Of a stretch of 64,000 nt of DNA, positions 32,601 to 54,480 are shown piece by piece. The notes beneath the pieces were generated by a model. It was not told where the DNA came from, ran no database searches, and saw nothing but the letters and a program-made list of their open reading frames with translations. This DNA comes from Candidatus Woesearchaeota archaeon. GTDB taxonomy: Archaea > Nanobdellota > Nanobdellia > Woesearchaeales > ARS49. The DNA is taken from the NCBI GenBank assembly GCA_019322895.1, contig JAHWHZ010000001.1, positions 459,528-523,527 of the forward strand, read 5' to 3'. Position 1 is the first letter of the stretch; each line of letters opens with the position of its first letter. A program made the translations under genes and the position numbers.

Positions 32601-32782
32601 ACTGGCAGTTCACAAACAATTCTGATGCAACAATGCAAAAAAGTGTTGCATGGGATATTGCAGGAACAAATGCAACTGAAATAGGGTGTTGCGGTCCTGA
32701 TGAGTGCTGGAATGGTTTTAATTGCGTTAAAATCGGCAGGTTCCAGGAAATAGATTCAGTCTCATATTTTTGCGGGGAATAA
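29636..32782 (+). CDS. large secreted Cys-rich surface protein with concanavalin-A-like/LamG domain
   Basis: 1048 aa with a signal peptide. The LamG_3-like segment is LSYWTFDDT...NGLLSGATY...LFDG...DWAHIALIFNGNTARLFKNGDPVG...KIDEVALYD. More than 50 Cys. Confidence 0.65.
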   Translation: MGSKHTLLVILVLILFSSTVYAVDFELAFGYPMYNLSYSKQFWGVADTTGPYFILENTGIWTIHPTEIEVEGLLEVDPPFIAVEARGHYTDRYACEGNRGGGGCNSHLKVLLEYNQKEVWDNVRRADNPPNWYEDPINVISDYVEYKRVSGRKECTNRDPDVNCWPDQVIQFYYAPIIVKDFNNVFVEDETKSLGTVGEIMGEDFPDGVNATVYTGIFSENKQVLFWIADYPDSSADYPAEPEKNTADKTDYILACADFDQNNKCDHLQSTVQTCWDEDGAWFGRNYHEGQLYGGGFVEGCCVDNDPQKIARLNAAGIEAFHCGYYDHRLKALCGYDEQGNHHWASLEQAGSIADLRGCPGFNIVSNGRRFYGCRAGNLGFATFDTNVSVQRTWYDWEGKWHAKAENEDLFEGALYTNANDWLRDYFDDNGKTDLCRLTESMCNAENAYESAYKCDFTDDPNTERYQVNSDEATVYWDLSTDDWPDLFCPYRISIYPLEHQTKSIYSASGTHTYLCDSTTGNLFECTGDLPSFTNPYENPGAIAETGRTTVELVGAGGCPPGILSYWTFDDTVQDSKGDFNGLLSGATYAEGIVNNALLFDGNDKVTVSGNLTTPASNFTIESWIYPEQVDEGTYSILEKPGSYKLEIVDRRLKAGVNIDGTWENFGHALVSKNDWAHIALIFNGNTARLFKNGDPVGHADKTGSITKTINPLVIGQNFIGKIDEVALYDESLSYTLFKAHKDAERNYCNLSTGFTQIEYCASDGWWTYDLDTKDESSCEKSGFKWTGHLCCSEDNDENEFYNDWDSPALPFDYSRKSANVDLLPDSDNPTFITLKPRKSRITIYGPARFEMRVYSSEKFGTTYDRCEEIEDKTRIIEIKSGESRTFRAEQGPAEGGDNCIYREIELESKPFEALGGCWNKTFVPIGHFAEPHVINYHGKFYSCGIPALDLIDTRNGSTLVKSVSPTCSHIMLHARGPLLHAVCNPGKDWQFTNNSDATMQKSVAWDIAGTNATEIGCCGPDECWNGFNCVKIGRFQEIDSVSYFCGE

Positions 32783-32797
32783 AAAAGAGGTGATTAG

Positions 32798-39851: not shown

Positions 39852-40321
39852 AAAAAGCGCAGATGATAGGCCAGATATTTATTTTTGTAGTTGCTGCAAT
39901 AATTTTTATCCTTATCCTTATGTATGGGTATAAGGCAATCTCTAATTTTTTGCAGCGTTCTGAGCAGGTTGCATTGATTGATTTCAAGTCTGATTTAGAA
40001 TCTTCTGTAGAGGTCATCAAGAGGGATTATGGCAGTGTGAGAAAGCTTGAATTAAAGCTGCCAAAAAGATATACAGAGCTCTGCATAATTGATATAAACA
40101 ATTGCGAGCCGCTAAAGAAACAGAGGCCTTTGATGTATTCGACGTGTATTGCAGGCAGTGAGAATGTCATACTTGTTCCTAAGCAGGAAACTCCTATCTT
40201 TCTTCCAGACATAACTGTTTTAGGCGGCTACACTTGTGTTGATGTTGCCCACGGCAATGTTGTACTGGGCCTTAAGGGTCTTGGCAAGTCAACACAGATT
40301 TCAGGGTGGCCTGTTCCATAA
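39848..40321 (+). CDS. pilin-like protein with archaeal class III signal peptide
   Basis: MKKAQMIGQIFIFVVAAIIFILILM... The ATG overlaps the upstream stop (ATGA). Confidence 0.55.
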   Translation: MKKAQMIGQIFIFVVAAIIFILILMYGYKAISNFLQRSEQVALIDFKSDLESSVEVIKRDYGSVRKLELKLPKRYTELCIIDINNCEPLKKQRPLMYSTCIAGSENVILVPKQETPIFLPDITVLGGYTCVDVAHGNVVLGLKGLGKSTQISGWPVP

Positions 40322-41358
40322 TGAAAAAACGCGGTTTTGAGATGCAGTTTCACTGGATTTTTATTCTGATAGCTGGCGCTGTAATCCTTGCTTTCTTTTT
40401 TTCTGTAGTTGCCAAGCAAAAATCGCTTTCTGAGCAAAAGCTTTCCATAACCCTCTCAGAGAATATTGAAGCGGTTTTTTCTGGCGCAATTGAAAGCAAG
40501 GGAACTGCCCAGTTGCTTGCAATGCCTAAAGGGGGACTGTCTTTTTCCTGCTCAGAGGCTTGTGACTGTAATTTTTGGATTGATGACAAGGCAACTTCTT
40601 TCAGCGATAAGATCCTGTTTGCTCCCTCCTTGATTGAAGGCCAGGATGCTGTGGCCTGGTCAAATGAATGGAAGATGCCTTTTAGGATAACTAATTTCCT
40701 GTACATCACAAATCCTAATATCAAGTATTATCTTGTTTATGAGGCTGGCAAGAATGACCGCTTGTTTGATAGGATAAATAAGTCATTTCCACCTGGATTG
40801 AATGTGGCTGTTTTGAGAGACCCGAATGAAGTAGAGGATGTTCCTTATGAAGGTTATCCGGAGACTAAGTTTATATTTTTAGATGTGGTCAATCCTGAGA
40901 TTAACCTGATGGGCATGGACAGTGATTTCAAGAGAGAAGAGGTTTCTGCAATAAATATCCAGCCAAATGCAAATTCAATCACTTTTTACGAGAAAACGCC
41001 TAAAGAGATTGAATTTACATCCAAATCATCTCCTTTTGCAGGCGAGCCGTGGATATTTGCCGCAATATTCGCTGCAGATAAGCAGATGTATGATTGTGGC
41101 TTGCGGGCAGCTTTCCTTAAGCTGAGTCATGTTGCGCAGGTAATTTATGGCAGGGCAAAGATGATACAGGCCAACATAACCCAAATAAAACCTGAATGCA
41201 CATATTTGCTTGACAGTTTTGACGTGCTTATTGAAAGCTCAAAAAGTTTTGTAAATCAATTGGATTTTTCAAGTATTTCAGGCATAGCCCAGGCTGCTGA
41301 TGATATTGAGAGAGAAAACAAGAACATAATATTGTTATCCTGCCCAGAGATTTATTAA
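40321..41358 (+). CDS. pilin-like protein (class III signal peptide, 345 aa)
   Basis: MKKRG|FEMQFHWIFILIAGAVILAFFF. The start is set at ATG 40321, overlapping the upstream TAA by 1 nt. Confidence 0.55.
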   Translation: MKKRGFEMQFHWIFILIAGAVILAFFFSVVAKQKSLSEQKLSITLSENIEAVFSGAIESKGTAQLLAMPKGGLSFSCSEACDCNFWIDDKATSFSDKILFAPSLIEGQDAVAWSNEWKMPFRITNFLYITNPNIKYYLVYEAGKNDRLFDRINKSFPPGLNVAVLRDPNEVEDVPYEGYPETKFIFLDVVNPEINLMGMDSDFKREEVSAINIQPNANSITFYEKTPKEIEFTSKSSPFAGEPWIFAAIFAADKQMYDCGLRAAFLKLSHVAQVIYGRAKMIQANITQIKPECTYLLDSFDVLIESSKSFVNQLDFSSISGIAQAADDIERENKNIILLSCPEIY

Positions 41359-41359
41359 A

Positions 41360-41851
41360 ATGAGGCGAGCACAGATAAAGATGTTTGAAACAATGGCTGT
41401 GTTAGTGATATTCTTCTTTTTATTGGTCGGCGGTGCTGCTTTTTATTTTCAGATACAGAAAAGCAGCATAAAAAGAGATTTGGAGAGGCAGGAGCAGCTG
41501 CGTGCGTTTCAGGTTGTGCAGAAAGCGTTGTTTTTGCCAGAGCTTGACTGTTCTTTTGTGAGCATACAGAAAGATAATTGCTTTGATAAATTAAAAGTGA
41601 TTAATCTCCAAGAGCTTTTGAAGCAGGAAAAGTTTATGATTGATTATTTTAATGTGTTTGGTTTTTCCGAGATAAAGATAATGCAGCTTTATCCTGTTAA
41701 TGATACCTTTTCATATACTCTTTACCAGAACATTCCTGAAAAATATAAGTCCGTGATAAGCACGCAAAGCCCGATACTGCTGTTTGATGCAGTGCAGAAC
41801 AGGTATAATTTTGGTGTTGTTGAGGTTGATGTTTATGCAGAAGAGCAATAA
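41360..41851 (+). CDS. pilin-like protein (class III signal peptide)
   Basis: MRRAQIKMFETMAVLVIFFFLLVGG. Confidence 0.5.
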   Translation: MRRAQIKMFETMAVLVIFFFLLVGGAAFYFQIQKSSIKRDLERQEQLRAFQVVQKALFLPELDCSFVSIQKDNCFDKLKVINLQELLKQEKFMIDYFNVFGFSEIKIMQLYPVNDTFSYTLYQNIPEKYKSVISTQSPILLFDAVQNRYNFGVVEVDVYAEEQ

Positions 41852-42320
41852 GTCCCAGATGGAGATAATGGGTCTGGTAATTATAGTGATACTTGTTGCT
41901 ATTGGAATGCTTTTTGCAGTGCAGTTTTTGCTGAAAAAGCCTGCTGGAAGAGAGACTGCAGCTGTAAAGGAAAGCACGATTGCGGCAAATTTCCTTAACG
42001 CGATGCTTTCCACCACAACTGACTGCTATAACAGGAACATTCGCGAATTATTGCAGGACTGTGCTCTTACTGGCGGCACCACAAGATGCCCTGGCCAGAG
42101 AAACTCTTGTGATTATGCTGCAGACCAGATAAGAATAATGCTTGACAAGACATTGAGCACCTGGAACAAGGATTATTATTTCAGCATAAAAGGCGCTCCT
42201 GGTGTTGAGGCAATCTCTTTTGGCAATTCCTGCCCTGAATGTGAGAGAGAGGCAAAGATACATCCTGTTCCTGTCCGGCCTGGCTTTGAGATACAGCTTA
42301 CGCTTGAGATTTATAGTTAA
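41835..42320 (+). CDS. pilin-like protein (class III signal peptide), Cys-containing
   Basis: The start is set at ATG 41835 (MQKSNKSQMEIMGLVIIVILVAIGMLF). Four Cys in the globular part. Confidence 0.5.
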   Translation: MQKSNKSQMEIMGLVIIVILVAIGMLFAVQFLLKKPAGRETAAVKESTIAANFLNAMLSTTTDCYNRNIRELLQDCALTGGTTRCPGQRNSCDYAADQIRIMLDKTLSTWNKDYYFSIKGAPGVEAISFGNSCPECEREAKIHPVPVRPGFEIQLTLEIYS

Positions 42321-42350: not shown

Positions 42351-44207
42351 ATGATGGGGGACAGCAGGATTAAAAGAGCATATAATTGGCTAGTGAAAAA
42401 GCCTTTGCGCACAGCAGGCATTGCAGGACTTATTGCATTGCCTTACAGTTTGTACAATGTTTTGAACTGGAAGATTTCTTTTATTGATTCAGAGGCGTCT
42501 GAGCTTTTTCAGGATCTTTTTGCAATAACCACTCCTGTATGGACAGCAGCCAGCACAGGCTTTTTTGCAGAATTGCTCAATACTTTTACTTATGAAGATA
42601 AATATCATCCAAGAACAAGATTAAGTGATTTCAAGAAGAGAAGGAAAATAAAAAAAGAACTTGCAAAAACTGATTTTGAGTCATTAATTGACAAGGAGTT
42701 TAAGTTGTTGAAGGCAGATAATGTCTTGAAGACGCTTTATGATGAAGGAATTAAAAGGCCAGGTATCACAGGAACTCCTGAAGGCACAGACAAGCTTGCT
42801 GAGCTGGCTGAAAAAGAAAAAAATCCAGCAATGCATTTTGATGCTGCATTTAATTATTTTGACCAGGATAAACATGATGAAGCTTTTATCCAGATGAGCA
42901 AGTTTCTTCAGCTTAATAAGGATATTTCTTTGCTTCATAAGCTTGATTTGACAATAAAAGACTTTTGCAACAGAACAGAAACTTTCTTGAATACCAGGAA
43001 TTCATTTCCCTTGTTTTATGCAGCCTTGATAGAGATATTGAAAAGAAATTATGACAGCGCCCTTTATTATTCTTCTTTTGCAAGAAAAACAGCTGAAGAA
43101 TTTGACAGTCCGATCAAGAAAGAAATATTTTGCCTTGACTCATTGATTCATCATGCACTGAATGCAAAGAATTCAAGCGAAATCTGGGCCAATTTTGTGA
43201 TAGAGACAAGAAAACAGCAGGCTCTTGAAAGGATTGCTGAAACAAAGAATCTTGTGAGGCAGGTGAAAGACAGCAGGTTCTTGTCAAAGACAATTGTGTT
43301 AAAAGACAAGCATGATAGAAAAGATCTTGAGGCAGAGGCAGAGATGACAAATTACATTAAAGGCATTCTTCCTACTAGAGATGAGCTCAAGAAGATAATC
43401 GGCGATGATATTGGAATAACATTTGATACTCCAGAGATGTTTTATCTTTCAGAAAAACCTGTCAATAATATGTATCCATTGGTCATGCGCCATGCTCCTG
43501 GAGAGACCTTGCTTGAGCAGTTTAAGAAAGAAAAATATTCTATGTTTCCTTTTATTGCTGTATGCCTGGCAAAGATTCATGCAGATGTCCCTGCTGAAAA
43601 AGTCAGGAAAAAGCAGCTTGAGATTATTCCTAAGTTAATGCGCAAGCTGACAGATCCTGATCTAAAGCTCTCAAAGGACCTGACTGAAAGAGTCCTTCGC
43701 AATTACAAGCCTGTGTTGAATCTTTTTAAGGACGCAACGTATGTCTATAATAAGGATGCGCATCCAGAAAACTGGCTGATACATGACAAGACAGTTATTG
43801 TTCTTGACTGCGAGAATAATTTCTTGGTCCCGCAGCAGTTTGACTTGGTTAATTTGCTTGAGTATTCAGATTACCTTACTGATATGCAGAAAGATTATGC
43901 AATAAAGCTGTATATTGATGCATATGAGGAATTCACAAATACCTTGATTGACAGGGAAAAGTTCAAGCTTACGTATTTAAATTCAGTGATTCAAAGAGCC
44001 ATCTCCTTGTGTACTGCCTGGTCTTCTGAATACAGGAAGTCAATGCATGCTGAAAGGCCTAAAGTAATTGCAAATGCCATTCACGCGATAGACAGGATGC
44101 AGAAAGAGCATAAAACATATTATTACAGGCATAAATTTAATTATTTGAATTTGCAGAGAGCTTTAGAAGAAATAAAGGAATTAGTCAGTGTTCAAGGCAA
44201 TCATTGA
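42351..44207 (+). CDS. hypothetical 618-aa protein; C-terminal region with protein-kinase-like (APH/ChoK-type) signature
   Basis: NKDAHPENWLIHDKTVIVLDCENNFLVPQQFDLVNLL resembles the HxDxxxxN ... DxE ... DL motifs of aminoglycoside/choline kinase-like folds. There is one N-terminal hydrophobic segment. Call is tentative. Confidence 0.3.
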   Translation: MMGDSRIKRAYNWLVKKPLRTAGIAGLIALPYSLYNVLNWKISFIDSEASELFQDLFAITTPVWTAASTGFFAELLNTFTYEDKYHPRTRLSDFKKRRKIKKELAKTDFESLIDKEFKLLKADNVLKTLYDEGIKRPGITGTPEGTDKLAELAEKEKNPAMHFDAAFNYFDQDKHDEAFIQMSKFLQLNKDISLLHKLDLTIKDFCNRTETFLNTRNSFPLFYAALIEILKRNYDSALYYSSFARKTAEEFDSPIKKEIFCLDSLIHHALNAKNSSEIWANFVIETRKQQALERIAETKNLVRQVKDSRFLSKTIVLKDKHDRKDLEAEAEMTNYIKGILPTRDELKKIIGDDIGITFDTPEMFYLSEKPVNNMYPLVMRHAPGETLLEQFKKEKYSMFPFIAVCLAKIHADVPAEKVRKKQLEIIPKLMRKLTDPDLKLSKDLTERVLRNYKPVLNLFKDATYVYNKDAHPENWLIHDKTVIVLDCENNFLVPQQFDLVNLLEYSDYLTDMQKDYAIKLYIDAYEEFTNTLIDREKFKLTYLNSVIQRAISLCTAWSSEYRKSMHAERPKVIANAIHAIDRMQKEHKTYYYRHKFNYLNLQRALEEIKELVSVQGNH

Positions 44208-45095
44208 TGCAGAGAAATCAACTATTTTCAGGACAGCGTTATTTAAGTAGTTAAGCATTCCTGCTTCTGCTCCTTTTTTTATGCTCACTGCCTTGTGCCC
44301 TTTTTCAAGCAGTTCTTTTTTCTTTTCATTCAGTTTATTTAACTGCTTTAAGTCAAATGAATAAAATAATTCGTAATATCTTCTCAGCAGGTCATTTGTT
44401 TCCTTGAATAAAGAAATGCTTTCTTTTGAAAGTTTTGCATTGCTTTCTGAGAGCAGTTTGCAGATATACTTGTAATCATCGCATACTTTTTCAAGGTTCC
44501 ATGCGATTACATAATAAAAGCAGGTTTTTGCATAATCAAGATGCCCTTTCTTGTTGAGTGTTCTTTGGCAGAAATTTGTTAATTGATTGTTTGTTTTTTC
44601 AAGTGCAAGAAGCTCTTTCAATTGCTTTTGCTGTCCCTGCTTGATGTATTCTATTGCACTGTCGCCCATTGATATTGTCACAAGCCACGCTCTTCTCAGG
44701 ATGTTGTCAAACTCCTGCTCTCTTTCCTGTGATATTGCTCGTAATACGCATCTTTTATTGCTTTGGTGCACAATTGCAAATCCAACAAAGAGGTCTTTCA
44801 CAAGCTCTTGTATGACTGCTGTCTTTTTCGGGTTTTCATAGAATAATTCTATCTCATCATAGCCTTTCTTGTGCAGGCTTGATAACAGCCATCTAAGGGT
44901 TCTTTCGTCTGTCTTTGTTATGTTGATGCTTGTCTTTTTTGTGTCTATTTCTTTTTTTGTTGAGAATATGATGTTTGTTGCCCTGTCTTTTACTTCCAGT
45001 TCATCTCCTTTTTTGATGCCGTACTTTTTTACCCACTTGCTTGGCAAACTCACCACAAAGGTTCTTCCTGCAAGCTGTATCACTTTTCTCTTCAT
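44181..45095 (-). CDS. transcription regulator: AbrB/SpoVT swapped-hairpin N-domain fused to PhoU-like domain
   Basis: MKRKVIQLAGRTFVVSLPSKWVKKYGIKKGDELEV (AbrB/MazE-type) plus a helical PhoU-like repeat region. Confidence 0.6.
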   Translation of the reverse strand: MKRKVIQLAGRTFVVSLPSKWVKKYGIKKGDELEVKDRATNIIFSTKKEIDTKKTSINITKTDERTLRWLLSSLHKKGYDEIELFYENPKKTAVIQELVKDLFVGFAIVHQSNKRCVLRAISQEREQEFDNILRRAWLVTISMGDSAIEYIKQGQQKQLKELLALEKTNNQLTNFCQRTLNKKGHLDYAKTCFYYVIAWNLEKVCDDYKYICKLLSESNAKLSKESISLFKETNDLLRRYYELFYSFDLKQLNKLNEKKKELLEKGHKAVSIKKGAEAGMLNYLNNAVLKIVDFSASMIALNTD

Positions 45096-45227: not shown

Positions 45228-45692
45228 ATGCTTAAGAAAAAAGATCTGGTATTAACAGCTTACTTAAGGCAGAATTCGCGGGCATCCTTGACAATATTAT
45301 CACGCAAGACAGGGGTTCCTGTAAGCACAATATTTGACAGGCTCAAGACAAATAAGATAATTGTAAAAAACACTGCCTTGCTGGACTTCAGTAAGATGGG
45401 ATATGGCGCGCGGGCCACTATACTATTGCGCGCAAAAAAGAATGAAAAGCAGAATCTTAAAGATTTTTTGATGGCATCCTTTAATGTAAACTCTTTGTAT
45501 AAGGTAAATAATGGCTTTGATTTCATGTTTGAGTGTATTTTCAGGGATATAAAAGAGCTTGAGGAGTTTGTGGATGCTATTGATGAGAAATTCTCTATCA
45601 GGTCCAAGGAAATTCATTATATAATCGATGAAATCAAGAAAGAGACTTTTCTCAGCCAGCCAGAGCTTGTAGAGCTGGTATATGCCCAATAA
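45228..45692 (+). CDS. Lrp/AsnC-family transcription regulator
   Basis: 154 aa with an HTH (SRASLTILSRKTGVPVSTIFDRLK) plus a RAM domain. GGAGGTGA SD upstream. Confidence 0.75.
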   Translation: MLKKKDLVLTAYLRQNSRASLTILSRKTGVPVSTIFDRLKTNKIIVKNTALLDFSKMGYGARATILLRAKKNEKQNLKDFLMASFNVNSLYKVNNGFDFMFECIFRDIKELEEFVDAIDEKFSIRSKEIHYIIDEIKKETFLSQPELVELVYAQ

Positions 45693-45754: not shown

Positions 45755-46081
45755 ATGAGAAAAGCACAAGGATTGCCTATCACTACTATTATCATTGCTG
45801 CATTAGCACTAGTTGTGCTTGTAGTATTGTTTGCCATATTTACAGGCAGACTATCTATTTTTGGAAGAGGCATTTCCGAATGCCCTGGAATTTGTGTTGC
45901 CAAATATTCTGAAAGCGGTGCAACCACTAGTGGCGTGAAAACAGCAGATGCAACAGCTGCATGTCCTAATCCGCAACTGCAAAGGCCGCTGACAGGAACA
46001 TATATTGAAGTAGGACAGCCAGCTAACAGAAAAGCAGAAGATTTGGTTTTCTGCTCTAAGTGCTGCGTCTCCACAGTCTGA
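45755..46081 (+). CDS. small disulfide-rich pilin-like protein (candidate major pilin), paralog 1
   Basis: MRKAQG|LPITTIIIAALALVVLVVL class III signal, with an approximately 80-aa mature part containing 6 Cys. Confidence 0.55.
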   Translation: MRKAQGLPITTIIIAALALVVLVVLFAIFTGRLSIFGRGISECPGICVAKYSESGATTSGVKTADATAACPNPQLQRPLTGTYIEVGQPANRKAEDLVFCSKCCVSTV

Positions 46082-46236
46082 TGGTAGAGCTGAAGATTCC
46101 TTATTTGCAGGGCGTCACTCCTGCAAGACTTTTTACTTTATTGACTTTGATTGTTCTTTTGGTTATACTCATAACTAAATTCTTTGTTTTGAAAGAGCAT
46201 ATGAGCTTGATTCCGCCTTCTGTATTGCCTTAGGTT

Positions 46237-46553: not shown

Positions 46554-46895
46554 ATGAAGAAAAGAGGCCAAGGATTGCCAATAACCACCATAATCATAGC
46601 TGCTCTTGCACTGATAGTTCTCGTGGTTCTTATTTTCATATTTTCAGGCAAAATAAGGGTTTTTAGCGGAGAGATGGTTAGCTGCACAAGCAAGGGGGGT
46701 TTTTGTACTTCAAAAGCTTGCGTATTTGGCTATCAATCAGAAATCAAGAATACAGATTGTCCTTCTGGCCAGAAATGTTGCCTTACAATTCTTGGCGCTC
46801 CTGCAGATTCTCCTTGCGCTAATGATGATGACTGTGCAAAAGGTTTAGAGTGTAAAAATAACAAGTGCACCGCAAAGACTGCAGCTAAAAAATAG
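46554..46895 (+). CDS. small disulfide-rich pilin-like protein (candidate major pilin), paralog 2
   Basis: MKKRGQG|LPITTIIIAALALIVLVVL has an N-terminus nearly identical to 45755. The mature part has 10 Cys (knottin-like spacing). The start is set at ATG 46554. Confidence 0.55.
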   Translation: MKKRGQGLPITTIIIAALALIVLVVLIFIFSGKIRVFSGEMVSCTSKGGFCTSKACVFGYQSEIKNTDCPSGQKCCLTILGAPADSPCANDDDCAKGLECKNNKCTAKTAAKK

Positions 46896-46952
46896 ACAAT
46901 ATTTCTTTTTTCACCAAAAACCTTTTATATATAATTCTTATTTTCTGAAGTA

Positions 46953-47060
46953 ATGAAAAAAAGAGGCGTGATTGAGCCAGAGATATTGATAGCAATAGTT
47001 TTGTCAGTCATTTTTCTCATAATCGCAATCTTGGTCTTGACAAGGAAGGGCATCATATGA
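46953..47060 (+). CDS. micro-ORF (35 aa) consisting only of a class III signal peptide plus TM helix
   Basis: MKKRGVIEPEILIAIVLSVIFLIIAILVLTRKGII. Its stop overlaps the next start (ATGA). Missed by the more than 60-aa ORF track. Confidence 0.3.
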   Translation: MKKRGVIEPEILIAIVLSVIFLIIAILVLTRKGII

Positions 47061-48025
47061 ACAAGAAAAGCCAGGCAGGAATCCCCACAAGCGTGCGTAT
47101 AATAGGCCTTGCAATAGCACTGTTAGCGCTTATACTTGTTTCAGGAGTGTTTGTTCAGTATATTTTTGGAGCTGTAAAGACAGGGGAATGCCAGTGGGAC
47201 CTGCTGTTCTCAGCCATCTCAACAGTGGCTGGCGGAGGCGCGATGGATATTCCTCCTGAATGCAAGGCAGAATACATCACCATAACAAAAAAAGATCTTG
47301 AAAAAGAGCTTGATACTGCTGCAGCAAGAATAAAAACATATGATTCAAATCCAGAAAAATATAAGAAGATACGCGCCGCAGGATTCCAGTATTACAAAAA
47401 TGAGCCAGAAAAGAATTACAGGGTTCAGATGGAATGGGCCTTGAACAAGATAGTTGCAGATAAGCTGCTTTCCTGCTGGAAAAAGGTATGGAAAGGAAGC
47501 CTGCCAATGTTTGATTATTGGTGGAAGCTTGTTGACTGGACCTGGTTTGGATTGAGTGAAGAAGATTATACCAAAAAGCAGTTAGAATATATTGATGAAC
47601 AATTTAATGCAGGAGTTTTAAAGATCTACGGCCCTCCTGCTTTCTGCATTATATGCTATCACTTGAATTTTGATAAGGATGTCAGGGGATTATTTCAAGA
47701 AGATATCAAATCCTTGAAGGTATGGATGGCAGGCAACAAGGCCCCGAATTCAGATAAAAGCTATCTTGAAGAACTGCTTGAAGGACAGACTTTTGAAAGC
47801 CCGCTGTATATCCCCCCATATGAATATAACATTCAAAAGCCAGTAGGGATTGTTTACAAAAGGCTTAATCCTCAGGCATTAAACGTGGTTAAAGACTGGA
47901 TTCTTAGCAACTTGGCTGGATATGAGAAAGCAAAGGCAGTGAATATTCTTGCTCTTGCAGATTATGATGTGGTAACTACTCCAGCTGGTAAAAATGGATT
48001 AGGGTGTTTTTATGTCATTGATTAA
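47057..48025 (+). CDS. pilin-like protein (class III signal peptide, 322 aa)
   Basis: MNKKSQAG|IPTSVRIIGLAIALLALILV. Confidence 0.5.
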   Translation: MNKKSQAGIPTSVRIIGLAIALLALILVSGVFVQYIFGAVKTGECQWDLLFSAISTVAGGGAMDIPPECKAEYITITKKDLEKELDTAAARIKTYDSNPEKYKKIRAAGFQYYKNEPEKNYRVQMEWALNKIVADKLLSCWKKVWKGSLPMFDYWWKLVDWTWFGLSEEDYTKKQLEYIDEQFNAGVLKIYGPPAFCIICYHLNFDKDVRGLFQEDIKSLKVWMAGNKAPNSDKSYLEELLEGQTFESPLYIPPYEYNIQKPVGIVYKRLNPQALNVVKDWILSNLAGYEKAKAVNILALADYDVVTTPAGKNGLGCFYVID

Positions 48026-48179
48026 GATGCAAAACAAGAAAGCAATGGAAATACCTGGATGGATTTATGTTGTAGGCTTGATAATCGGCTTGCTGGTCAT
48101 ATTGTTGATAATCTGGATTTCTGCAAAATCCGGCCAAAAGGCAACTGGTTTGCTGGATACCATCAAAGGATTACTATGA
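48012..48179 (+). CDS. micro-ORF (55 aa) with class III signal-peptide-like N-terminus
   Basis: MSLIKMQNKKA|MEIPGWIYVVGLIIGLLVILLIIW. Translationally coupled at both ends (14-nt overlap upstream, ATGA downstream). Confidence 0.3.
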   Translation: MSLIKMQNKKAMEIPGWIYVVGLIIGLLVILLIIWISAKSGQKATGLLDTIKGLL

Positions 48180-51100
48180 AAAAAAGAGGTGTAAGTGGGG
48201 CTTTTATGTGGGTTTCTATAGTTATAGGGCTCATTGTTATCTTGTCCATTGGAACAGTCCTTTACCAGGGAAGAGATTATCTCTCAGAAAAAATATTTGG
48301 AAAAAAATACATCTCTGCTGAAGAAAAAGAATTTGTTCCTTACGAAGTGGAGTTAGAAGGAGAAGTAAAGACAGCAGATGATTCTATGAAAGCTCTTGTT
48401 TGCGCTTTCAACAGTTTGGCTATTGAGAAAAAAGGCTGGCTCATTGAAGGAGTGTGTCCAGAAGGGTTTTATTCAAAAGAAGTAGAAGAGAAAAAGAAAA
48501 AAGAGGCAGAAGAGAAGAAAGCAGCAGAAGAAAAGAAAAAAGCAGAGGAAAAGAAAACAGAACCCACGCCTGCTCCAACAGGAGCAATGGTTTCAATAAC
48601 AGGCGCCGCAACTAAAGAGGATTGCGATGGTGCCTTGTATGGCCAGACTTGTGTTGAGTGCCGTGAAAGCGAGTTTGGCATGAAAACAATTACTTTGCCA
48701 GACAGCGAATATGATGCTACAAAAATGTTAGCTAAAGCTGCAGTTCAGTGCTGGAATGATTTTAAAGGTCCAAAAGGCAATAAAGGCGAAAAAAATATTC
48801 TTTGCAATAAGGTTGTCATACCAGGGACTGCACCTGGCTGGGTAATAACAAAAGAAGAGTTTAGAGAACGTCTAGAAAAATTTGAAGGAGAAGTAGGTTC
48901 TGACTTGGCAGGTCTTGGTACTGGAACACAGAATGTTGATTGGAAATTTGGCGAGGCAATTGTCTTAAATATTAAACAAGAATTTTATATCTGCGCTAAC
49001 GATGCTTACGATGCCAATCCGTTTGACGCAGATGAGATTTTCTTCACGCGAAATCTAAATGATTGTGAAGTTGAAACAAGAGGGCTTGCCGAAAAAGAAT
49101 TTACCTGCGAAATTAAAACTTTTGAGTTGCCGCAGGAGATTGGCAGCGACATCAGTCTTTTTAATTGGGCAGAAGAGTTCATTAACAAGTATAATGACCC
49201 GGAATATCTTGCGTATTACGAGTCTTTTCCAAGAGGAGAGGAAGCAGCATGGCATTTAGAAGAAGGCGATTTTATTGTTGATGTTATACTGTTCGGTGCA
49301 GTCATGAATACGTTGCCTGTGCTTGGAAAAGGTGTGCGCCAAGCTGGCGGATTATTTAGAAGAATATTCACTAAAAAAATTCTTGTGGAAGTGCCTGAAG
49401 ATATTGTTAAGAAAGCTTCTAAAAAAACCATAACAACAGTATTAGGGAAAACAGGCAAAGAGATTGGAACAGAACTCGGCGAACAAACTATAAAAGAACT
49501 GACAGATATGTTTGGCAAAGGCATGGAGCGCCAGCTAAAATCACAGATACTCTATGATAATATACTTAAAGAAGTGGGGGAAGATGCTGCAGAAACAGCC
49601 CGCCAGGCATTTCTCTCAAAATATTCTATCTATAAAGGAATGGGAAAGACAGACGACCAGATTGCAACTCTTCTGAAAAAAGAGATCCCAGAAGCAATTG
49701 GAAAGACACCTGATGAAGTCAGCGGACTAATCAAGAATGTGGATGACGTGATTAAGAAATCCCTGGCAGAGCTTAGCGAATCCGCTAGGAATAAGCAGAC
49801 TGCCAGGCAGTTTTTTACAAAATATCTCTTGAAAGAAGGCGGTGAAAGCCTCAATAAAGAAGCTATGGAAAATATATTAGCTACAGCCTTGACTAAAGAG
49901 ACATATGATAAGCTTGGCCCAGAAGCAGCAGAACAAATAATGCAGCGTTCCCTTTCATATACTGATGAAATTATTGATGTCACTAAAGGCACCGATGAAT
50001 TGTTAAAAACCCAGTCATTGATAGGCCGAACTTATGGTGCAGTTGTTGGCCAAGTTAATAAAGAATTCAACCTTTTTGCAAATATATTGAGCCAGCCAAA
50101 TAAAGATACCTTATCAAGATTTTTATTAGGAGTAACTCCCAAAGAAATTGGCGAAGCTGTTGCGCAAAAAGGAGGGGCATTAGGTGCTATCGGAGCAGCT
50201 GCAGCGCGTTATAATCCTATTCATATTTCAATAGGAACAGGAAAAATTGTTCCAATTCCTAGACCTTTGTTGGTACGTTCACTTGTTGGAACTGCATATA
50301 AGACTACGCGTACAGGCATTCGTTTTACCTCTGATGCTGCAGGGGCTGCATGGCATTCCAGGGCTGCGCGTTACACACTGGCATATCTCCTTGCAACGCA
50401 GATAGCTGAATCAGATGCAAAGAATGATAAATTAGGTTATAATGAGGAAAATACGCTTATCCTGCAAAAGCCTTATGATTTTGATGCTAAGGCAAAATAT
50501 TTTTTGTCAGATGAAACTAATAAGTATTACTTGAACTTGCACAAGTATCAGTATGGTGATGCGCGGTTCTTCCTTGCAAGTCCCTGCAAAGCAGACTTGA
50601 CAATACCTAAAACAGATTGTGATTGTAATATCTATTCTGGAGATTACATCTTGAAATCCAATAATCAGCCATTTGACCCTGCTTCTGTAAAATTCAAGAG
50701 CGATGACGCGATTCATACTGTGTATAAATATGATGAACTTTCAAAAGATGGTAAAAGAGCTGCAATGGATTATTGTTTAGTAAAAGACCAGGAGTTTGGT
50801 GTTTTATGCAACATATTTGTTATGAAGGATCCTGAAGCTTATGAAAAGTTTACAAAATATGTTTATAAGAATGTTTATAGCCCTGCAATTGATTTCATGC
50901 AAAAATATAAAGTAGATGAAGAAAAGATTGCTGATATCATTGAAAGAAAAGAAGGGGATGTATCGCTTACAATAGGCCACATAATTTCAGATGCTGGCGA
51001 AGAATTAAGGCCGCATTATGAATTTGGTGCTTTCTGCTTTTTTGCAGAAGGCGGTATTGGTCCTTGCTCAGTCAATATTCCTGGTGCGCTCACTGAGATG

Positions 51101-51700
51101 CTTGTAGAAACAAGAGCTCCTGAGCTTACATTAAGAAAAACTCCTTTGTCTTATGAAGAATTCAAAAAAGAGTTTGATAAGGTTATTGCAAGTGGTTATT
51201 ATGAGAATATTGCATTTTCAGTTTATCATAAACTGGGAGCGATTAGGAAAGGCGAAGGTATGTATTTCATGGATATGTATGACCCAAATGGATTCTTAGA
51301 TATTGCTACAAGACACACTTACTTAAATTACAATGTTGTTGAAGACAGCAAGATTGACAAAAAGAAGATTGCAAAGCTTTGTAATACTAGATTAGATGAG
51401 CGGGAGCCACACATAAAAAGTATGCTCGCAACAAAAGTATCTATTGCTTGTTTTAATGCCCAGCCAAGCATAGAAGGATATCCTGATTATAATAATGGCC
51501 ATAATTATTGCTTCAGCAGCGAGCATGCTGGAATTGAGACTGCCAAAGATATTGCCACAGGCATTTCTATTGCAATTGACTTTGGTGCAGGAATCATAAG
51601 TGGCGGCTTGGCAGAAGCGCCTGTAGCAGCTCTTACTGGCCTTGGTTCTGCATGGTTTGCTCATGAAATGGATAAAAAGAAATTCTGGCCAAATCATTAA
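48176..51700 (+). CDS. giant (1175 aa) pilin-like surface protein with Lys/Glu-rich repeat
   Basis: The start is set at ATG 48176 (MKKRG|VSGAFMWVSIVIGLIVILSIG). EKKKKEAEEKKAAEEKKKAEEKK is encoded by an approximately 85-nt pure polypurine tract. The remainder has no recognisable domain. Confidence 0.55.
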   Translation: MKKRGVSGAFMWVSIVIGLIVILSIGTVLYQGRDYLSEKIFGKKYISAEEKEFVPYEVELEGEVKTADDSMKALVCAFNSLAIEKKGWLIEGVCPEGFYSKEVEEKKKKEAEEKKAAEEKKKAEEKKTEPTPAPTGAMVSITGAATKEDCDGALYGQTCVECRESEFGMKTITLPDSEYDATKMLAKAAVQCWNDFKGPKGNKGEKNILCNKVVIPGTAPGWVITKEEFRERLEKFEGEVGSDLAGLGTGTQNVDWKFGEAIVLNIKQEFYICANDAYDANPFDADEIFFTRNLNDCEVETRGLAEKEFTCEIKTFELPQEIGSDISLFNWAEEFINKYNDPEYLAYYESFPRGEEAAWHLEEGDFIVDVILFGAVMNTLPVLGKGVRQAGGLFRRIFTKKILVEVPEDIVKKASKKTITTVLGKTGKEIGTELGEQTIKELTDMFGKGMERQLKSQILYDNILKEVGEDAAETARQAFLSKYSIYKGMGKTDDQIATLLKKEIPEAIGKTPDEVSGLIKNVDDVIKKSLAELSESARNKQTARQFFTKYLLKEGGESLNKEAMENILATALTKETYDKLGPEAAEQIMQRSLSYTDEIIDVTKGTDELLKTQSLIGRTYGAVVGQVNKEFNLFANILSQPNKDTLSRFLLGVTPKEIGEAVAQKGGALGAIGAAAARYNPIHISIGTGKIVPIPRPLLVRSLVGTAYKTTRTGIRFTSDAAGAAWHSRAARYTLAYLLATQIAESDAKNDKLGYNEENTLILQKPYDFDAKAKYFLSDETNKYYLNLHKYQYGDARFFLASPCKADLTIPKTDCDCNIYSGDYILKSNNQPFDPASVKFKSDDAIHTVYKYDELSKDGKRAAMDYCLVKDQEFGVLCNIFVMKDPEAYEKFTKYVYKNVYSPAIDFMQKYKVDEEKIADIIERKEGDVSLTIGHIISDAGEELRPHYEFGAFCFFAEGGIGPCSVNIPGALTEMLVETRAPELTLRKTPLSYEEFKKEFDKVIASGYYENIAFSVYHKLGAIRKGEGMYFMDMYDPNGFLDIATRHTYLNYNVVEDSKIDKKKIAKLCNTRLDEREPHIKSMLATKVSIACFNAQPSIEGYPDYNNGHNYCFSSEHAGIETAKDIATGISIAIDFGAGIISGGLAEAPVAALTGLGSAWFAHEMDKKKFWPNH

Positions 51701-52858: not shown

Positions 52859-53380
52859 ATGTCAAAAAAAGGGGCAGTAGCATTAGAATACTTGGTTGAT
52901 TTAATTCCAAGAATAATAATATTTGTAGGGCTTCTGGCTGCATTGGCTGTTTTGTTTAATGTTATAGTAAAGCAATCAGCAACAACTCCTGCTGAAGATG
53001 ACTTGAACAGGGTTTTTGAAAAAATAAAGCAATTGCAGCCATACAGAGCAGAAAAAGTGTTTACAACAGGCGATGATTATACATTAGTCTTGTACGGACA
53101 GGAGCATATTGATCTTCCTGAGCAGTGCAGCAAAGCAGCATGCTTGTGTGTTACAGATGCAAAAGGAAAAACATCATGTAAAAGACTTACTGATGTGAGC
53201 AAGCAGTGCGCCACCTCAAAATGCGCCGCAAGCCCGATGTGTTTTGATCCTATAAGCTCAAATAAAGTTTATATCAGGGGAACCGGCACGGTCCGAGAGC
53301 CAATTTACATTTGCAGGCACTGCACAGAATTAATGATTACAGATTCAGAAGCATTATGTAAAGGACATGCAGCAAAATGA
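52859..53380 (+). CDS. pilin-like protein, Cys-rich
   Basis: MSKKG|AVALEYLVDLIPRIIIFVGLLAALAVLF is a classic archaeal prepilin N-terminus, with 12 Cys. Confidence 0.55.
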   Translation: MSKKGAVALEYLVDLIPRIIIFVGLLAALAVLFNVIVKQSATTPAEDDLNRVFEKIKQLQPYRAEKVFTTGDDYTLVLYGQEHIDLPEQCSKAACLCVTDAKGKTSCKRLTDVSKQCATSKCAASPMCFDPISSNKVYIRGTGTVREPIYICRHCTELMITDSEALCKGHAAK

Positions 53381-54480
53381 TTTCTAAAAAAGGAACAATA
53401 GTGGACCTTGTCTTAATGCCTACTTTCACGACAATAATTGTTCTTGGCTTTATTTTGCTGAGCATCCTTGCTACAATCAAAGGCCTGCATGGTGATTTGC
53501 AGCCGGAAAAAGCATCAACTGCAATAAATTCAGGACTGCTAACAATAGGATTGCATGATCTTACAGGAAATATTGATTATATCTACGGCAACAGGAAGAA
53601 TTTCAGCTTTGATTTCCAGGACAATAAAATATTGGTTTACACAAAGAAAAAAGACAAGTCAGATGCAGTAACTTATGCTTTTGCAGAAGACGGCTCTTTA
53701 GGCAGGCTTACATTCATTCCAAAAACCCTTAATTTCACCAAAAAAACAATACGTGAGCTTCATTTTGTCAAGCAGGGCAATGTTGTTTTTGTGGACAGCC
53801 CTATTGTTAATGATAAATTCCGGGCAAATCTTGATTTGCTGGAGTGCTCAAGAGAAAAGACAACAGCACTAAAAAAAGATATAATTATAGATCCATCTCT
53901 TGGCTGGGACGCAAACCTTGAGAAAGAGGGTGTTCCTGCCGGCGAAAAAGGTTATATGAATCACAGACTGCAGATAACAGAGTCTGATGTTAATAGGATT
54001 ATTGCAGCAAGGCTTTTTGGCTATGGCAAGGACTTTTTTGCTGAAAAAGCACAGCACACAAGAAGCTTATCGCAGGATTCAAAGGTTGACTTAAATGAAA
54101 AAATAAACAAGGTACAGAAAAGCAAGGGAAACGCAGTAATCTCACTGCGCCTTGGCAGCTATGCTGATACAGATTTCAATCCAGTTATTGCTTATATCAA
54201 TGGAGAATCAAATGACATTAAGGCAAGCAGGAAACTTGCCTGCCTTATCCTTAATGCACTCTCAAGCAAGCTTCCTGAAATCACTGATATTGCGATTGTT
54301 CCTGTCAGCATAAGCCAGCTTGATAGATTTTCAGGAAATGACCCAAAAAGAGTGCTGCTAAAGGAGAAGATAGGATTGCAGTTAGTCATAGGCAATGTCC
54401 AGATAGAAAATAAGAATATGATTGTTGAAAAACAAGATGACATTGCAAGAGCAATATACGATGGCATTAAGGCTTATTAA
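53377..54480 (+). CDS. pilin-like protein (367 aa)
   Basis: MISKKG|TIVDLVLMPTFTTIIVLGFILLSIL. ATGA overlap with the upstream gene. Confidence 0.5.
   Translation: MISKKGTIVDLVLMPTFTTIIVLGFILLSILATIKGLHGDLQPEKASTAINSGLLTIGLHDLTGNIDYIYGNRKNFSFDFQDNKILVYTKKKDKSDAVTYAFAEDGSLGRLTFIPKTLNFTKKTIRELHFVKQGNVVFVDSPIVNDKFRANLDLLECSREKTTALKKDIIIDPSLGWDANLEKEGVPAGEKGYMNHRLQITESDVNRIIAARLFGYGKDFFAEKAQHTRSLSQDSKVDLNEKINKVQKSKGNAVISLRLGSYADTDFNPVIAYINGESNDIKASRKLACLILNALSSKLPEITDIAIVPVSISQLDRFSGNDPKRVLLKEKIGLQLVIGNVQIENKNMIVEKQDDIARAIYDGIKAY

What the first reader, a model, noticed from the sequence alone, without database searches (positions are those of the whole stretch)
46953..47060. 35-aa micro-ORF that is essentially a bare prepilin signal peptide plus helix
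MKKRGVIEPEILIAIVLSVIFLIIAILVLTRKGII has the same KKRG plus hydrophobic helix start as the large neighbours and ends by ATGA coupling into the next pilin-like gene. It is below the ORF-track length cutoff. It could be a minimal 'pilin' like the short minor pseudopilins, an assembly primer, or a relic.
Basis: seen in the sequence. Interest (0 to 1): 0.5.

Follow-up and report, generated by a model that had tools for sequence, protein, structure and literature searches.

The report
Conserved 35-residue pilin-signal-like membrane micro-protein
The 35-codon ORF is a real, evolutionarily conserved gene of Woesearchaeota (DPANN archaea) that encodes little more than a pilin-type leader (MKKRG) plus one membrane helix and heads a tightly coupled four-gene operon of pilin-like surface proteins; its biochemical role is still inferred, not shown.

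Summary
ORF 46953-47060 (+) encodes MKKRGVIEPEILIAIVLSVIFLIIAILVLTRKGII and overlaps the next gene by ATGA. It is neither chance nor a relic. All 16 related contigs with upstream DNA (partner protein down to 26% identity, all Woesearchaeota) carry a 34-40 aa ORF at the same spot. All share M-x-[KQ]-[RK]-G, a 25-28 residue hydrophobic stretch and a short basic tail. dN/dS is 0-0.57.

A conserved TATA box lies at -29..-22 of the ATG, the same geometry as bona fide leaderless genes of this genome. The ORF is therefore the first cistron of a micro35 / 322-aa / ~50-aa / 1174-aa operon joined by stop-start overlaps.

The N-terminus meets the sequence rules for an archaeal class III (prepilin) signal: R/K at -2, invariant G at -1, a 5-aa leader and a following H-domain. 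However, no pilin profile matches it. The tail is too short to form a filament surface. No pilus ATPase, platform protein or peptidase lies in the window.

Best reading: a helix-only, pilin-type membrane subunit made together with its partners. Processing and assembly are inferred. The family is undescribed, narrow, and absent from the NCBI records for this sequence.

The parts
46900..46912 (+). T-rich tract (tatttcttttttc) just after the stop (46893-46895) of the upstream 113-aa gene; a likely archaeal terminator that separates the transcription units
   Evidence: Read directly from the sequence. The function is inferred from the general knowledge that archaeal RNA polymerase terminates at oligo-T.
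46912..46931 (+). Promoter: BRE-like CACCAAAAACC followed by the TATA box TTTATATA (46924-46931), which lies at -29..-22 relative to the ATG
   Evidence: The motif CACCnnAAACCTTTTATATA is identical in L006 and L009-L012/L016/L017, and degenerate versions sit at the same distance in L015 and L018-L021. It is unique in the window. Bona fide leaderless genes of this genome show the same TATA-to-ATG distance of -28..-31, e.g. 5800, 7880(-), 28211 and 52382, whereas SD-led genes have the TATA at -42..-52.
46953..47060 (+). Micro-ORF, 35 aa: predicted leader MKKRG (46953-46967), H-domain VIEPEILIAIVLSVIFLIIAILVLT (46968-47042), tail RKGII (47043-47057), stop TGA (47058-47060)
   Evidence: Orthologues of 34-40 aa are found in 16 contigs. 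Alignment A3 shows M1, G5 and K32 invariant and K3 and R4 at 90% or more. dN/dS is 0-0.57.
47043..47050 (+). Shine-Dalgarno-like AGGAAGGG inside the last codons of the micro-ORF, ending 6 nt upstream of the ATG of the 322-aa gene (the AAGGGC hexamer within it ends 5 nt upstream)
   Evidence: AAGG[TG]N or GGTGG lies 5-6 nt upstream of the partner's start in the window, L006, L009, L010 and L018-L021. This genome uses GGAGGTG-type SD sequences. This overlaps the conserved Lys-Val/Gly/Ala codons.
47057..48025 (+). 322-aa partner gene (MNKKSQAGIPTSVRIIGLAIALLALILV..), translationally coupled to the micro-ORF by ATGA
48012..48179 (+). Second micro-protein, 55 aa from 48012 or 50 aa from 48027 (..NKKAMEIPGWIYVVGLIIGLLVILLIIWISAKSG..); ATGA overlap with the next gene
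   Evidence: A 42-55 aa ORF with the conserved PGW motif follows the partner gene in every locus.
48176..51700 (+). 1174-aa protein starting MKKRGVSGAFMWVSIVIGLIVILSIG; last cistron of the operon
   Evidence: Orthologues are 1163-1275 aa in L009-L012/L017/L023. In the distant loci L018-L021 the ORFs listed at this position are 182-224 aa. No Pfam family matches.
46554..46895 (+). 113-aa Cys-rich pilin-like protein (MKKRGQGLPITTIIIAALALIVLVVL..) with its own leaderless-type promoter
   Evidence: It is a paralogue of the 45755 family, with an invariant Gln after [KR][AG].
45755..46081 (+). 108-aa Cys-rich pilin-like protein (MRKAQGLPITTIIIAALALVVLVVL..)
   Evidence: More than 150 homologous clusters, all unnamed or 'hypothetical', and Woesearchaeota wherever an organism is given. 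Q5 is invariant. The AF2 model (pLDDT 82) shows a long N-terminal helix plus a 3-stranded sheet, but no PDB match was found.
46081..46233 (+). Third conserved micro-protein, 50 aa, a single TM helix without a [KR][GA] leader; TGATG overlap with the 108-aa gene
   Evidence: It is called as a 50-51 aa gene in L001, L009-L011 and L013, and is present in L016/L017.
45228..45692 (+). Lrp/AsnC-type regulator that precedes the locus in all relatives
   Evidence: Pfam AsnC_trans_reg and HTH_24. Synteny is seen.

Best explanation
The micro-ORF is a genuine gene for a 35-residue single-helix membrane protein of the class III (type IV prepilin-like) signal type.

Shown:
- It is conserved in position, length (34-40 aa), N-terminal motif M-x-[KQ]-[RK]-G, hydrophobic core (25-28 residues) and short basic tail across Woesearchaeota.
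- It is under purifying selection.
- It sits 21-22 nt downstream of a conserved TATA box.
- Its stop overlaps or abuts the start of a 322-aa membrane-anchored protein, which is followed in the same way by a ~50-aa micro-protein and a 1174-aa protein. All of these have the same kind of N-terminus.

Inferred:
1. The mRNA is leaderless, so the micro-ORF is the entry point for ribosomes. The downstream cistrons are translated by termination-reinitiation and/or the SD-like elements embedded in the preceding ORF ends. This would give roughly fixed stoichiometry.
2. At 35 aa the peptide is released before its helix leaves the ribosome. It would therefore insert post-translationally, N-terminus inside, like a tail-anchored protein.
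3. An archaeal prepilin peptidase cuts after the invariant Gly5, leaving a 30-residue peptide that corresponds to the alpha1-N segment of a pilin.
4. This peptide lacks any surface-forming part, so it does not build a filament itself. Instead it packs its helix with the N-terminal helices of the co-translated 322-aa, ~50-aa and 1174-aa proteins. It would act as a core, primer or anchor subunit of a minor-pilin-like complex that presents the giant protein, used together with the adjacent 108/113-aa Gln+1 pilin candidates.
For: - Conservation and synteny: 16 of 16 contigs with upstream DNA carry the ORF. Neighbour identity falls to 26%.
- Selection: window versus L006 shows 4 differences, all synonymous. 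Other pairs give dN/dS of 0.10-0.57.
- Motif: G5 is invariant, position 4 is R in 11 of 12 sequences and K in the other, and K3 is conserved at 90% or more. This matches the published requirements for archaeal prepilins: G/A/S at -1, a charged residue at -2, and cleavage before a 20-25 residue H-domain (PMC4371748, PMC10191384). A 5-aa leader is long enough for FlaK, and PibD accepts 3-4 aa (PMC4187195). Glu at +5 is present in the window copy and in L009.
- Context: 11 of the 12 ORFs with this kind of N-terminus cluster at 39.8-55.3 kb, against 0 in shuffles. The adjacent 108/113-aa family has an invariant Gln after [KR][AG], the EppA-substrate signature (PMC4371748).
- Promoter geometry equals that of real leaderless genes in this genome.
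- Junctions are ATGA, TGATG or a 1-nt gap in all loci except L012/L013. Coupling at such overlaps is documented in archaea (PMC6728339, abstract seen).
- There is no RNA-structure signal (z = -0.68) and no Rfam hit.
- Precedents for helix-only pilins: Tad pilins of 40-60 aa (PMC10710030) and the Epd major pilin (bioRxiv 10.64898/2026.04.22.720090).
Against: - No profile evidence: Pfam, NCBIfam and PDB-sequence searches of all 12 members give only insignificant hits and no pilin or class III family. The nearest pilin in 5.8 billion proteins scores E = 8.2.
- No Peptidase_A24, T2SSE or T2SSF gene lies among the window ORFs scanned.
- The neighbours themselves are pilins only by N-terminal pattern. 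Their models match nothing in the PDB.
- The residues right after the putative cut are semi-polar and variable. E/D at +5 is not conserved, and there is no Gln at +1, so an EppA-type enzyme would not accept it (PMC4371748).
- The 4-10 residue tail cannot cover a filament core.
- Part of the conserved C-terminal Lys-Val/Gly/Ala coincides with an SD-like element for the next gene, so not all of the conservation is about the peptide.
- A basic N-terminus followed by a TM helix is also what a generic N-in membrane anchor looks like.
Confidence: 0.5

Rival explanations
1. It is an unprocessed small single-pass membrane protein, a generic N-in anchor. It acts as a transmembrane-helix partner (stabiliser, chaperone or regulator) of the 322-aa protein, with no relation to prepilin peptidase or to filaments. 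The KKRG motif is simply a positive-inside cytoplasmic cap.
For: The conservation, synteny and coupling data fit this reading as well. No pilin profile matches. No pilus machinery lies in the window. The partner's fold is unknown. In H. volcanii, pilin H-domains act within the membrane independently of pilus assembly (PMC4371748).
Against: A strictly invariant Gly, always preceded by R/K and always 25-28 residues before the distal charge, is not expected of a mere positive-inside cap. The same [KR][GAS] motif recurs on a cluster of neighbouring proteins, including a family with the EppA-type Gln+1.
Confidence: 0.33
2. It is a translational 'launcher'. The ORF exists mainly so that ribosomes can start on a leaderless mRNA and be handed by termination-reinitiation to the 322-aa gene. 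The peptide itself would have little or no function.
For: The TATA box at -29..-22 implies a leaderless start. Junctions are ATGA, TGATG or 1-nt. SD-like elements are embedded in the 3' codons. Leaderless short ORFs as the first genes of polycistronic mRNAs are known in mycobacteria (bioRxiv 10.1101/834739, abstract seen).
Against: A launcher needs no particular peptide, yet length, the MKKRG motif and TM character are kept while the nucleotide sequence diverges to saturation (pS up to 0.8) with dN/dS well below 1. The 322-aa gene could itself be leaderless, as many genes here are. In L012/L013 a duplication uncouples the two genes, yet the micro-ORF stays intact up to its tail.
Confidence: 0.1
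3. It is a chance ORF or a decaying remnant of a pilin gene's 5' end.
For: The ORF is very short and hydrophobic. AT-rich DNA readily yields such ORFs. The antisense frame is also stop-free in 11 of 13 loci.
Against: An intact ORF lies at the same place in 16 contigs spanning deep divergence. Purifying selection is seen, and the promoter is conserved. The open antisense frame is a by-product of NTN codons and is broken in L020/L021.
Confidence: 0.02

Closest known systems
Archaeal class III signal peptide proteins / type IV pilins (FlaFind-type substrates of PibD, FlaK, EppA)
   Same: Both have a short basic leader ending in Gly, R/K at -2, and an H-domain of about 25 residues directly after the putative cut, with Glu at +5 in some members. 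Both are encoded among other proteins with the same N-terminus and apart from the assembly genes, as are the H. volcanii pilA1-6 genes (PMC4371748).
   Different: The protein ends 4-10 residues after the H-domain and has no globular domain. No pilin HMM matches. Processing is untested.
Helix-only pilins: bacterial Flp/Tad (T4c) pilins and the archaeal Epd major pilin (arCOG06620)
   Same: These pilins lack a C-terminal globular domain and are essentially one helix (PMC10710030; bioRxiv 10.64898/2026.04.22.720090). Epd-like 'system 1' is reported in DPANN archaea.
   Different: Tad pilins are 40-60 residues long, and the polar C-terminal half of the helix forms the filament surface. The predicted mature micro-protein is 30 residues with a 5-residue tail. 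It has no G/xxxxEY Flp motif and no Gln at +1.
Geobacter sulfurreducens split pilin PilA-N / PilA-C
   Same: A short helix-only gene lies directly next to a gene for a larger partner with which it is thought to assemble (PMC10710030 discussion).
   Different: Here the 322-aa partner carries its own N-terminal leader and H-domain, so this is not a simple fission of one pilin. The micro-protein is half the length of PilA-N (61 aa; length from my own knowledge, not checked here).
Minor-pilin tip/initiation complexes with a large adhesin (PilHIJK plus PilY1/PilC; GspHIJK; TadE/F/G)
   Same: Both are a separate operon of several pilin-signal proteins of unequal size plus a protein of more than 1000 aa, placed next to major-pilin candidates (bioRxiv 10.64898/2026.02.14.705861; PMC10191384).
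   Different: There is no sequence or fold similarity to any minor pilin or to PilY1. Known minor pilins all have globular domains. This is an analogy of organisation only.
H-domain of Haloferax volcanii PilA pilins acting inside the membrane
   Same: It shows that a pilin H-domain alone can carry a function in the membrane, here regulation of motility, independent of the filament (PMC4371748).
   Different: In H. volcanii the H-domain is part of full-length pilins. No free-standing H-domain gene is described there.
Leaderless short first cistrons and ATGA/TGATG termination-reinitiation coupling
   Same: The promoter sits directly before the ATG, and a 4-nt or 1-nt stop/start overlap leads into the next gene (PMC6728339; bioRxiv 10.1101/834739; both seen as abstracts).
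   Different: Those regulatory sORFs are not conserved as membrane peptides. This one is.

Membership tests
Class III (type IV prepilin-like) signal peptide protein | Short hydrophilic leader that ends in Gly or Ala (Ser tolerated) at -1 | tested here: met
   The leader is MKKRG. Gly5 is invariant in 12 of 12 distinct orthologues. Criterion taken from PMC10191384 and PMC4371748.
Class III (type IV prepilin-like) signal peptide protein | Charged residue at -2 (critical in archaea) | tested here: met
   Position 4 is Arg in 11 orthologues and Lys in 1. Criterion from PMC4371748.
Class III (type IV prepilin-like) signal peptide protein | Stretch of 20-25 mainly hydrophobic residues directly after the cleavage site | tested here: met
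   There are 25-28 residues between Gly5 and the first distal charged residue in all orthologues (sequences). The first 4-7 of them are semi-polar.
Class III (type IV prepilin-like) signal peptide protein | Glu/Asp at +5 (frequent but not obligatory; only a subset in archaea) | tested here: inconclusive
   E5 is present in the window copy, L006 and L009. Other orthologues have an acidic residue at +4, +6 or +7, or none (L011, L016-L019).
Class III (type IV prepilin-like) signal peptide protein | Leader long enough for a prepilin peptidase | tested here: met
   The leader is 5 residues. FlaK needs at least 5, and PibD cleaves leaders of 3-4 (PMC4187195).
Class III (type IV prepilin-like) signal peptide protein | Actual cleavage by a PibD/FlaK/EppA-type peptidase | not testable with these tools
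   This needs biochemistry or intact-mass proteomics.
Class III (type IV prepilin-like) signal peptide protein | A prepilin peptidase, a PilB-type ATPase and a PilC-type platform are encoded by the organism | tested here: inconclusive
   None is found among the window ORFs scanned with Pfam. The rest of the genome (contig up to 705 kb) could not be read.
Class III (type IV prepilin-like) signal peptide protein | Match to a curated pilin or class III signal profile (Pfam Class_IIIsignal, Pilin_N, N_methyl; NCBIfam pilin models) | tested here: not met
   There are no such hits at E<=10, apart from ComGG at E = 0.36 in 2 of 12 members, which is insignificant. A PDB profile search finds nothing relevant.
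Filament-forming type IV pilin (major pilin, including helix-only Tad/Epd type) | A C-terminal globular domain, or a polar C-terminal helix half that covers the hydrophobic filament core; mature length of at least about 40 aa | tested here: not met
   The predicted mature length is 29-35 aa, and the tail after the H-domain is 4-10 residues. Tad pilins are 40-60 aa (PMC10710030).
EppA-type (Epd) pilin | Gln at +1 | tested here: not met
   The +1 residue is V, L, A, I, T, M, D or E in the micro family. By contrast the neighbouring 108/113-aa family has an invariant Gln.
Flp pilin | Flp motif G/xxxxEY at the processing site | tested here: not met
   The window copy reads G/VIEPEI: E5 is present but Tyr6 is absent. 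The motif is not conserved in orthologues. The motif itself is quoted from my own knowledge of Flp pilins.
Regulatory leader peptide / uORF | The effect depends on the act of translation, not on the peptide; the peptide sequence is free to vary or is enriched in regulatory codons | tested here: not met
   dN/dS is 0-0.57, and length, leader and TM character are conserved. There are no codon runs.
Split pilin (PilA-N/PilA-C type) | The partner gene encodes only the globular part and lacks its own alpha1 helix | tested here: not met
   The 322-aa partner has its own basic leader and a predicted N-terminal helix covering residues 11-38.

The most novel reading that the evidence does not exclude
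A free-standing 'alpha1-N only' pilin. In this reading the 35-aa precursor is cut by a prepilin peptidase to a 30-residue helix, which would be the smallest type IV pilin-class subunit known. That helix is incorporated stoichiometrically into the hydrophobic core of a minor-pilin-like complex as a primer, plug or anchor, together with a second micro-pilin (~50 aa), a 322-aa subunit and a 1174-aa adhesin-like protein. This would define a new way in which DPANN archaea build or cap their host-contact filaments.
Probability: 0.2. Interest if true: 0.7.

Novelty: new variant of a known kind. Interest (0 to 1): 0.45.

Why it matters
- DPANN archaea depend on cell-cell contact, and their genomes are full of unannotated proteins with pilin-type N-termini. 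This locus shows that conserved micro-proteins of 35-55 aa are integral, stoichiometrically coupled parts of such operons. These genes fall below the usual annotation cut-offs, and this one is absent from the NCBI records for the sequence.
- If the 35-aa protein is processed and assembled, it would extend the lower size limit of the type IV pilin class. It would also give a natural example of an H-domain working on its own.
- If it is not processed, it is still a clean, testable case of a small membrane protein dedicated to a surface-protein complex in archaea.
- Either way it is a warning that pilin loci cannot be read correctly with a 60-100 aa ORF cut-off.

Tried and rejected
It was replaced by a profile search.
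- The profile search of 5.8 billion proteins and the exhaustive HMM search of 1.84 billion representatives returned only the family itself, so no distant relatives or longer proteins share the sequence.
- Pfam, NCBIfam and PDB-sequence searches of all members gave only noise: EssA, SNARE, PufX, ComGG at E = 0.36.
- Pfam scans of about 60 window ORFs found no pilus ATPase, platform protein or A24 peptidase.
- An RNA-element explanation was rejected: folding z = -0.68 and no Rfam match.
- An antisense gene was rejected: that frame is open only because of NTN codon composition, and it is broken in L020/L021.
- The sigma-70 promoter/terminator scan is uninformative for an archaeon.
- A metagenome scan with a promoter+start pattern found only three more copies of variants already known.
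- SRP-mediated membrane targeting of the mRNA by the nascent micro-peptide was considered and rejected on general grounds. A 35-aa chain terminates while its helix is still inside the ribosomal tunnel.

Full report
**Observation.** The ORF is exactly as described. It has ATG at 46953, a TGA stop at 47058-47060, and 35 codons that translate to MKKRGVIEPEILIAIVLSVIFLIIAILVLTRKGII. Its stop overlaps the ATG of the 322-aa ORF 47057-48025 as ATGA.

The window is archaeal. It encodes eRF1, RadA, RPA, TrmB, PheRS, RFC and a proteasome-type AAA ATPase. The neighbouring 108-aa protein is recorded by NCBI as a hypothetical protein of a Candidatus Woesearchaeota archaeon (KY346_03020). All named relatives are Woesearchaeota or Nanoarchaeota MAGs.

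A pattern scan for M..[KR][KR][KR]?[GA] followed by an uncharged hydrophobic stretch finds 12 ORFs in the window, 11 of them between 39.8 and 55.3 kb. It finds none in 30 shuffles.

**Is it a gene? Conservation and selection.** Exact look-ups show that JGI and ENA gene callers already call the 35-aa ORF. A diverged strain (L006, about 87% nucleotide identity in the flanks) encodes the identical peptide. All four nucleotide differences are synonymous third positions, while the sequence further upstream is unalignable.

The 322-aa neighbour has homologues at 95-33% identity. Six further Woesearchaeota MAG loci carry it at 45-26% identity. In every one of the 16 contigs that include upstream DNA, a 34-40 aa ORF lies immediately upstream of the homologue. 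Examples:
- MKKRGLETGELLVVLALMLIIIVILTVFFTTDFWTKVFS
- MKKRGLAWEMWLVLIVLIIIIIIVITFLSDKVLP
- MKKRGASWASIMVVAVLLVIIFIVVLMIVRKALAPAM
- MNKRGTVSNLNELLVYLALFVIIAVIILFVLKEKIFTGAL
- MEKRGMSNLFRILLYLALFVLLALIILVVFKQKVFIGGP
- MNQKGEFSMFEQVALGILAAALFALVFWVFITKVLA

In the alignment, M1, G5 and one distal Lys are invariant, and K3 and R4 are conserved at 90% or more. The distance from Gly5 to the first distal charged residue is 25-28 residues in every member.

Nei-Gojobori estimates give dN/dS of 0 (window versus L006) and 0.10-0.57 for thirteen other pairs, with synonymous sites near saturation in the distant pairs. Only the sense frame is stop-free in all 13 loci. One antisense frame is open in 11 of 13, but that is the expected by-product of NTN codons and it is broken in L020/L021. 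The stretch shows no RNA-structure signal (z = -0.68) and no Rfam match. 'Relic' and 'chance ORF' are therefore rejected.

**Expression signals.** A BRE/TATA element, CACCnnAAACC-TTTTATATA, precedes the ORF. The TATA octamer is at 46924-46931, that is -29..-22 from the ATG. The element is identical in the closer relatives, and recognisable TATA boxes sit at the same distance in the distant ones. It is unique in the window.

Within this genome two promoter classes are visible. Genes such as the M29 peptidase (5800), a class I tRNA synthetase (7880, minus strand) and RNase P p30 (28211) have TATA at -28..-31 and no Shine-Dalgarno sequence. Others (45228, 45755, 18097, 56237) have TATA at -42..-52 and a GGAGGTG-type SD. 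The micro-ORF belongs to the first, leaderless class.

Downstream, all junctions are tight:
- micro35 / 322-aa: ATGA;
- 322-aa stop at 48025, then the next ATG at 48027 (an alternative ATG lies at 48012);
- that 50/55-aa ORF / the 1174-aa ORF (ATG at 48176): ATGA.

The relatives show ATGA, TGATG or 1-nt gaps at the first junction. The exception is L012/L013, where a 33-nt tandem duplication truncates the tail and leaves a 46-nt gap. Such overlaps are associated with termination-reinitiation coupling in archaea (PMC6728339, abstract seen).

In addition, SD-like AAGG[TG]N or GGTGG elements lie 5-6 nt before the partner's start, inside the last codons of the micro-ORF. The conserved Lys-Val/Gly/Ala near the C-terminus is therefore doubly constrained and cannot be read purely as a protein motif.

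**What kind of protein?** By the published rules, an archaeal class III signal has these features (PMC10191384, PMC4371748):
- a short hydrophilic leader ending in G/A(/S);
- a charged residue at -2;
- cleavage on the cytoplasmic side, before a 20-25 residue H-domain;
- often, but not always, an acidic residue at +5.

Leaders of 5 residues are processed by FlaK, and leaders of 3-4 residues by PibD (PMC4187195). The micro family meets every sequence criterion. The invariance of Gly5 and of R/K at position 4 in otherwise drifting sequences is the strongest single argument that this position is recognised by something, most simply a prepilin peptidase.

The adjacent 108/113-aa Cys-rich proteins belong to a family of more than 150 clusters with an invariant Gln after [KR][AG]. 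That is the signature of EppA-type pilins (PMC4371748). Epd-like 'system 1' machineries are reported in DPANN archaea (bioRxiv 10.64898/2026.04.22.720090). The AF2 model of the 108-aa protein (pLDDT 82) has a long N-terminal helix followed by a small sheet.

**Evidence against filing it as a pilin.**
- No Pfam, NCBIfam or PDB-sequence profile for pilins matches any of the 12 members.
- The profile search of 5.8 billion proteins and the exhaustive search of 1.84 billion representatives return only the family itself. The next hit, a bacterial N_methyl pilin, scores E = 8.2.
- Models of the 322-aa and 108-aa neighbours match nothing in the PDB.
- No ATPase, platform protein or A24 peptidase is encoded in the 64 kb.
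- The predicted mature peptide is only 30 residues with a 5-residue tail. Even the helix-only Tad pilins are 40-60 residues and use a polar C-terminal half to form the filament surface (PMC10710030).

The defining feature of a filament-forming pilin is therefore tested and not met. I file the protein as 'class III-signal-type micro-protein', not as a pilin.

**Mechanism I commit to (confidence about 0.5).**
1. The operon mRNA starts at or next to the ATG at 46953.
2. The micro-ORF is translated by leaderless initiation and hands ribosomes on to the 322-aa, ~50-aa and 1174-aa cistrons, which fixes their ratios.
3. The 35-residue chain is released before its helix leaves the ribosome. It inserts post-translationally with the N-terminus inside.
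4. It is probably trimmed after Gly5.
5. The resulting alpha1-N-like helix packs with the equivalent helices of its operon partners, as a core, primer or anchor element of a minor-pilin-like complex that carries the giant protein. This complex would operate with the neighbouring Gln+1 pilin candidates.

Steps 1-2 rest on conserved promoter and junction geometry. Steps 3-5 are inference from established properties of small tail-anchored-like proteins and of type IV filament assembly.

**Rivals.**
- The main rival (about 0.33) is the same membrane micro-protein without processing, acting as a helix partner or regulator. There is precedent for pilin H-domains acting inside the membrane in H. volcanii (PMC4371748).
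- A pure translational launcher (about 0.1) is disfavoured by the peptide-level constraint.

**Novelty and value.** The family has no name, no profile and no description in the libraries or papers searched. It is narrow, with nine protein clusters (34-40 aa, unnamed or 'hypothetical') in the profile search plus uncalled copies in MAGs. It is missing from the NCBI records for this sequence.

It is a new variant of a known kind, namely class III-signal proteins of archaeal surface systems, rather than something categorically new. Its interest lies in the possibility of a free-standing pilin H-domain. It also lies in showing that three conserved micro-proteins (46081-46233, 46953-47060, 48012/48027-48179) are built into one DPANN pilin-like locus.

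Noticed in passing
window 48012 (or 48027)-48179 (+): A second conserved micro-protein of 55 or 50 aa..NKKAMEIPGWIYVVGLIIGLLVILLIIWISAKSG... It has a [KR]A leader-like start and an invariant PGW motif. It lies between the 322-aa and 1174-aa genes, overlaps the latter by ATGA, and is present in every related locus, including the most distant ones.
   Followed up: partly
window 46081-46233 (+): A third conserved micro-protein of 50 aa, MVELKIPYLQGVTPARLFTLLTLIVLLVILITKFFVLKEHMSLIPPSVLP. It has a single TM helix and no [KR][GA] leader, and overlaps the stop of the 108-aa pilin-like gene by TGATG. It is called as a 50-51 aa gene in relatives.
   Followed up: partly
[not shown]
   Followed up: partly
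L012 4800-4887 / L013 3240-3326: A 33-nt tandem duplication at the 3' end of the micro-ORF truncates ..RKALAPAM to ..RKALS and separates it by 46 nt from the partner gene. It is seen in two records, an ENA scaffold and NCBI GCA_030631325.1, so it is either real or a shared assembly artefact.
   Followed up: no
window, gene starts listed: The genome uses two start types side by side. Leaderless genes have TATA at -28..-31 of the ATG. SD-led genes have GGAGGTG 5-8 nt upstream and TATA at -42..-52.
   Followed up: partly
window 29636-42320 (+): An upstream block of very large secreted-type proteins: 1048 aa with a Laminin_G_3 domain, and 1556 aa with Big_13/Big_3_3 and Y_Y_Y domains. It is followed by four proteins of 157-350 aa with the same [KR][KR][GA] or [KR]AQ N-termini, probably a second pilin-like/adhesin module.
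   Followed up: no
window 53377-54480 (+): A 367-aa protein with a pilin-signal-like N-terminus (MISKKGTIVD..) and a sub-threshold Amidase_3 (N-acetylmuramoyl-L-alanine amidase) match (E = 5.8e-5, 23.6 bits against a cut-off of 27). This could be a cell-wall hydrolase displayed on a pilin-type anchor.
   Followed up: no
window 52859-53380 (+): A 173-aa protein begins MSKKGAVALEYLVD.., i.e. G/AVALEY, which fits the bacterial Flp/TadE-type G/xxxxEY processing motif. The motif is recalled from my own knowledge and was not tested.
   Followed up: no
window 42351-45095: An APH-like kinase-fold protein (618 aa) and a 304-aa AbrB/MazE-domain protein on the opposite strand are syntenic with the pilin-like locus in all relatives, together with the Lrp/AsnC regulator. 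They may form a regulatory module.
   Followed up: no
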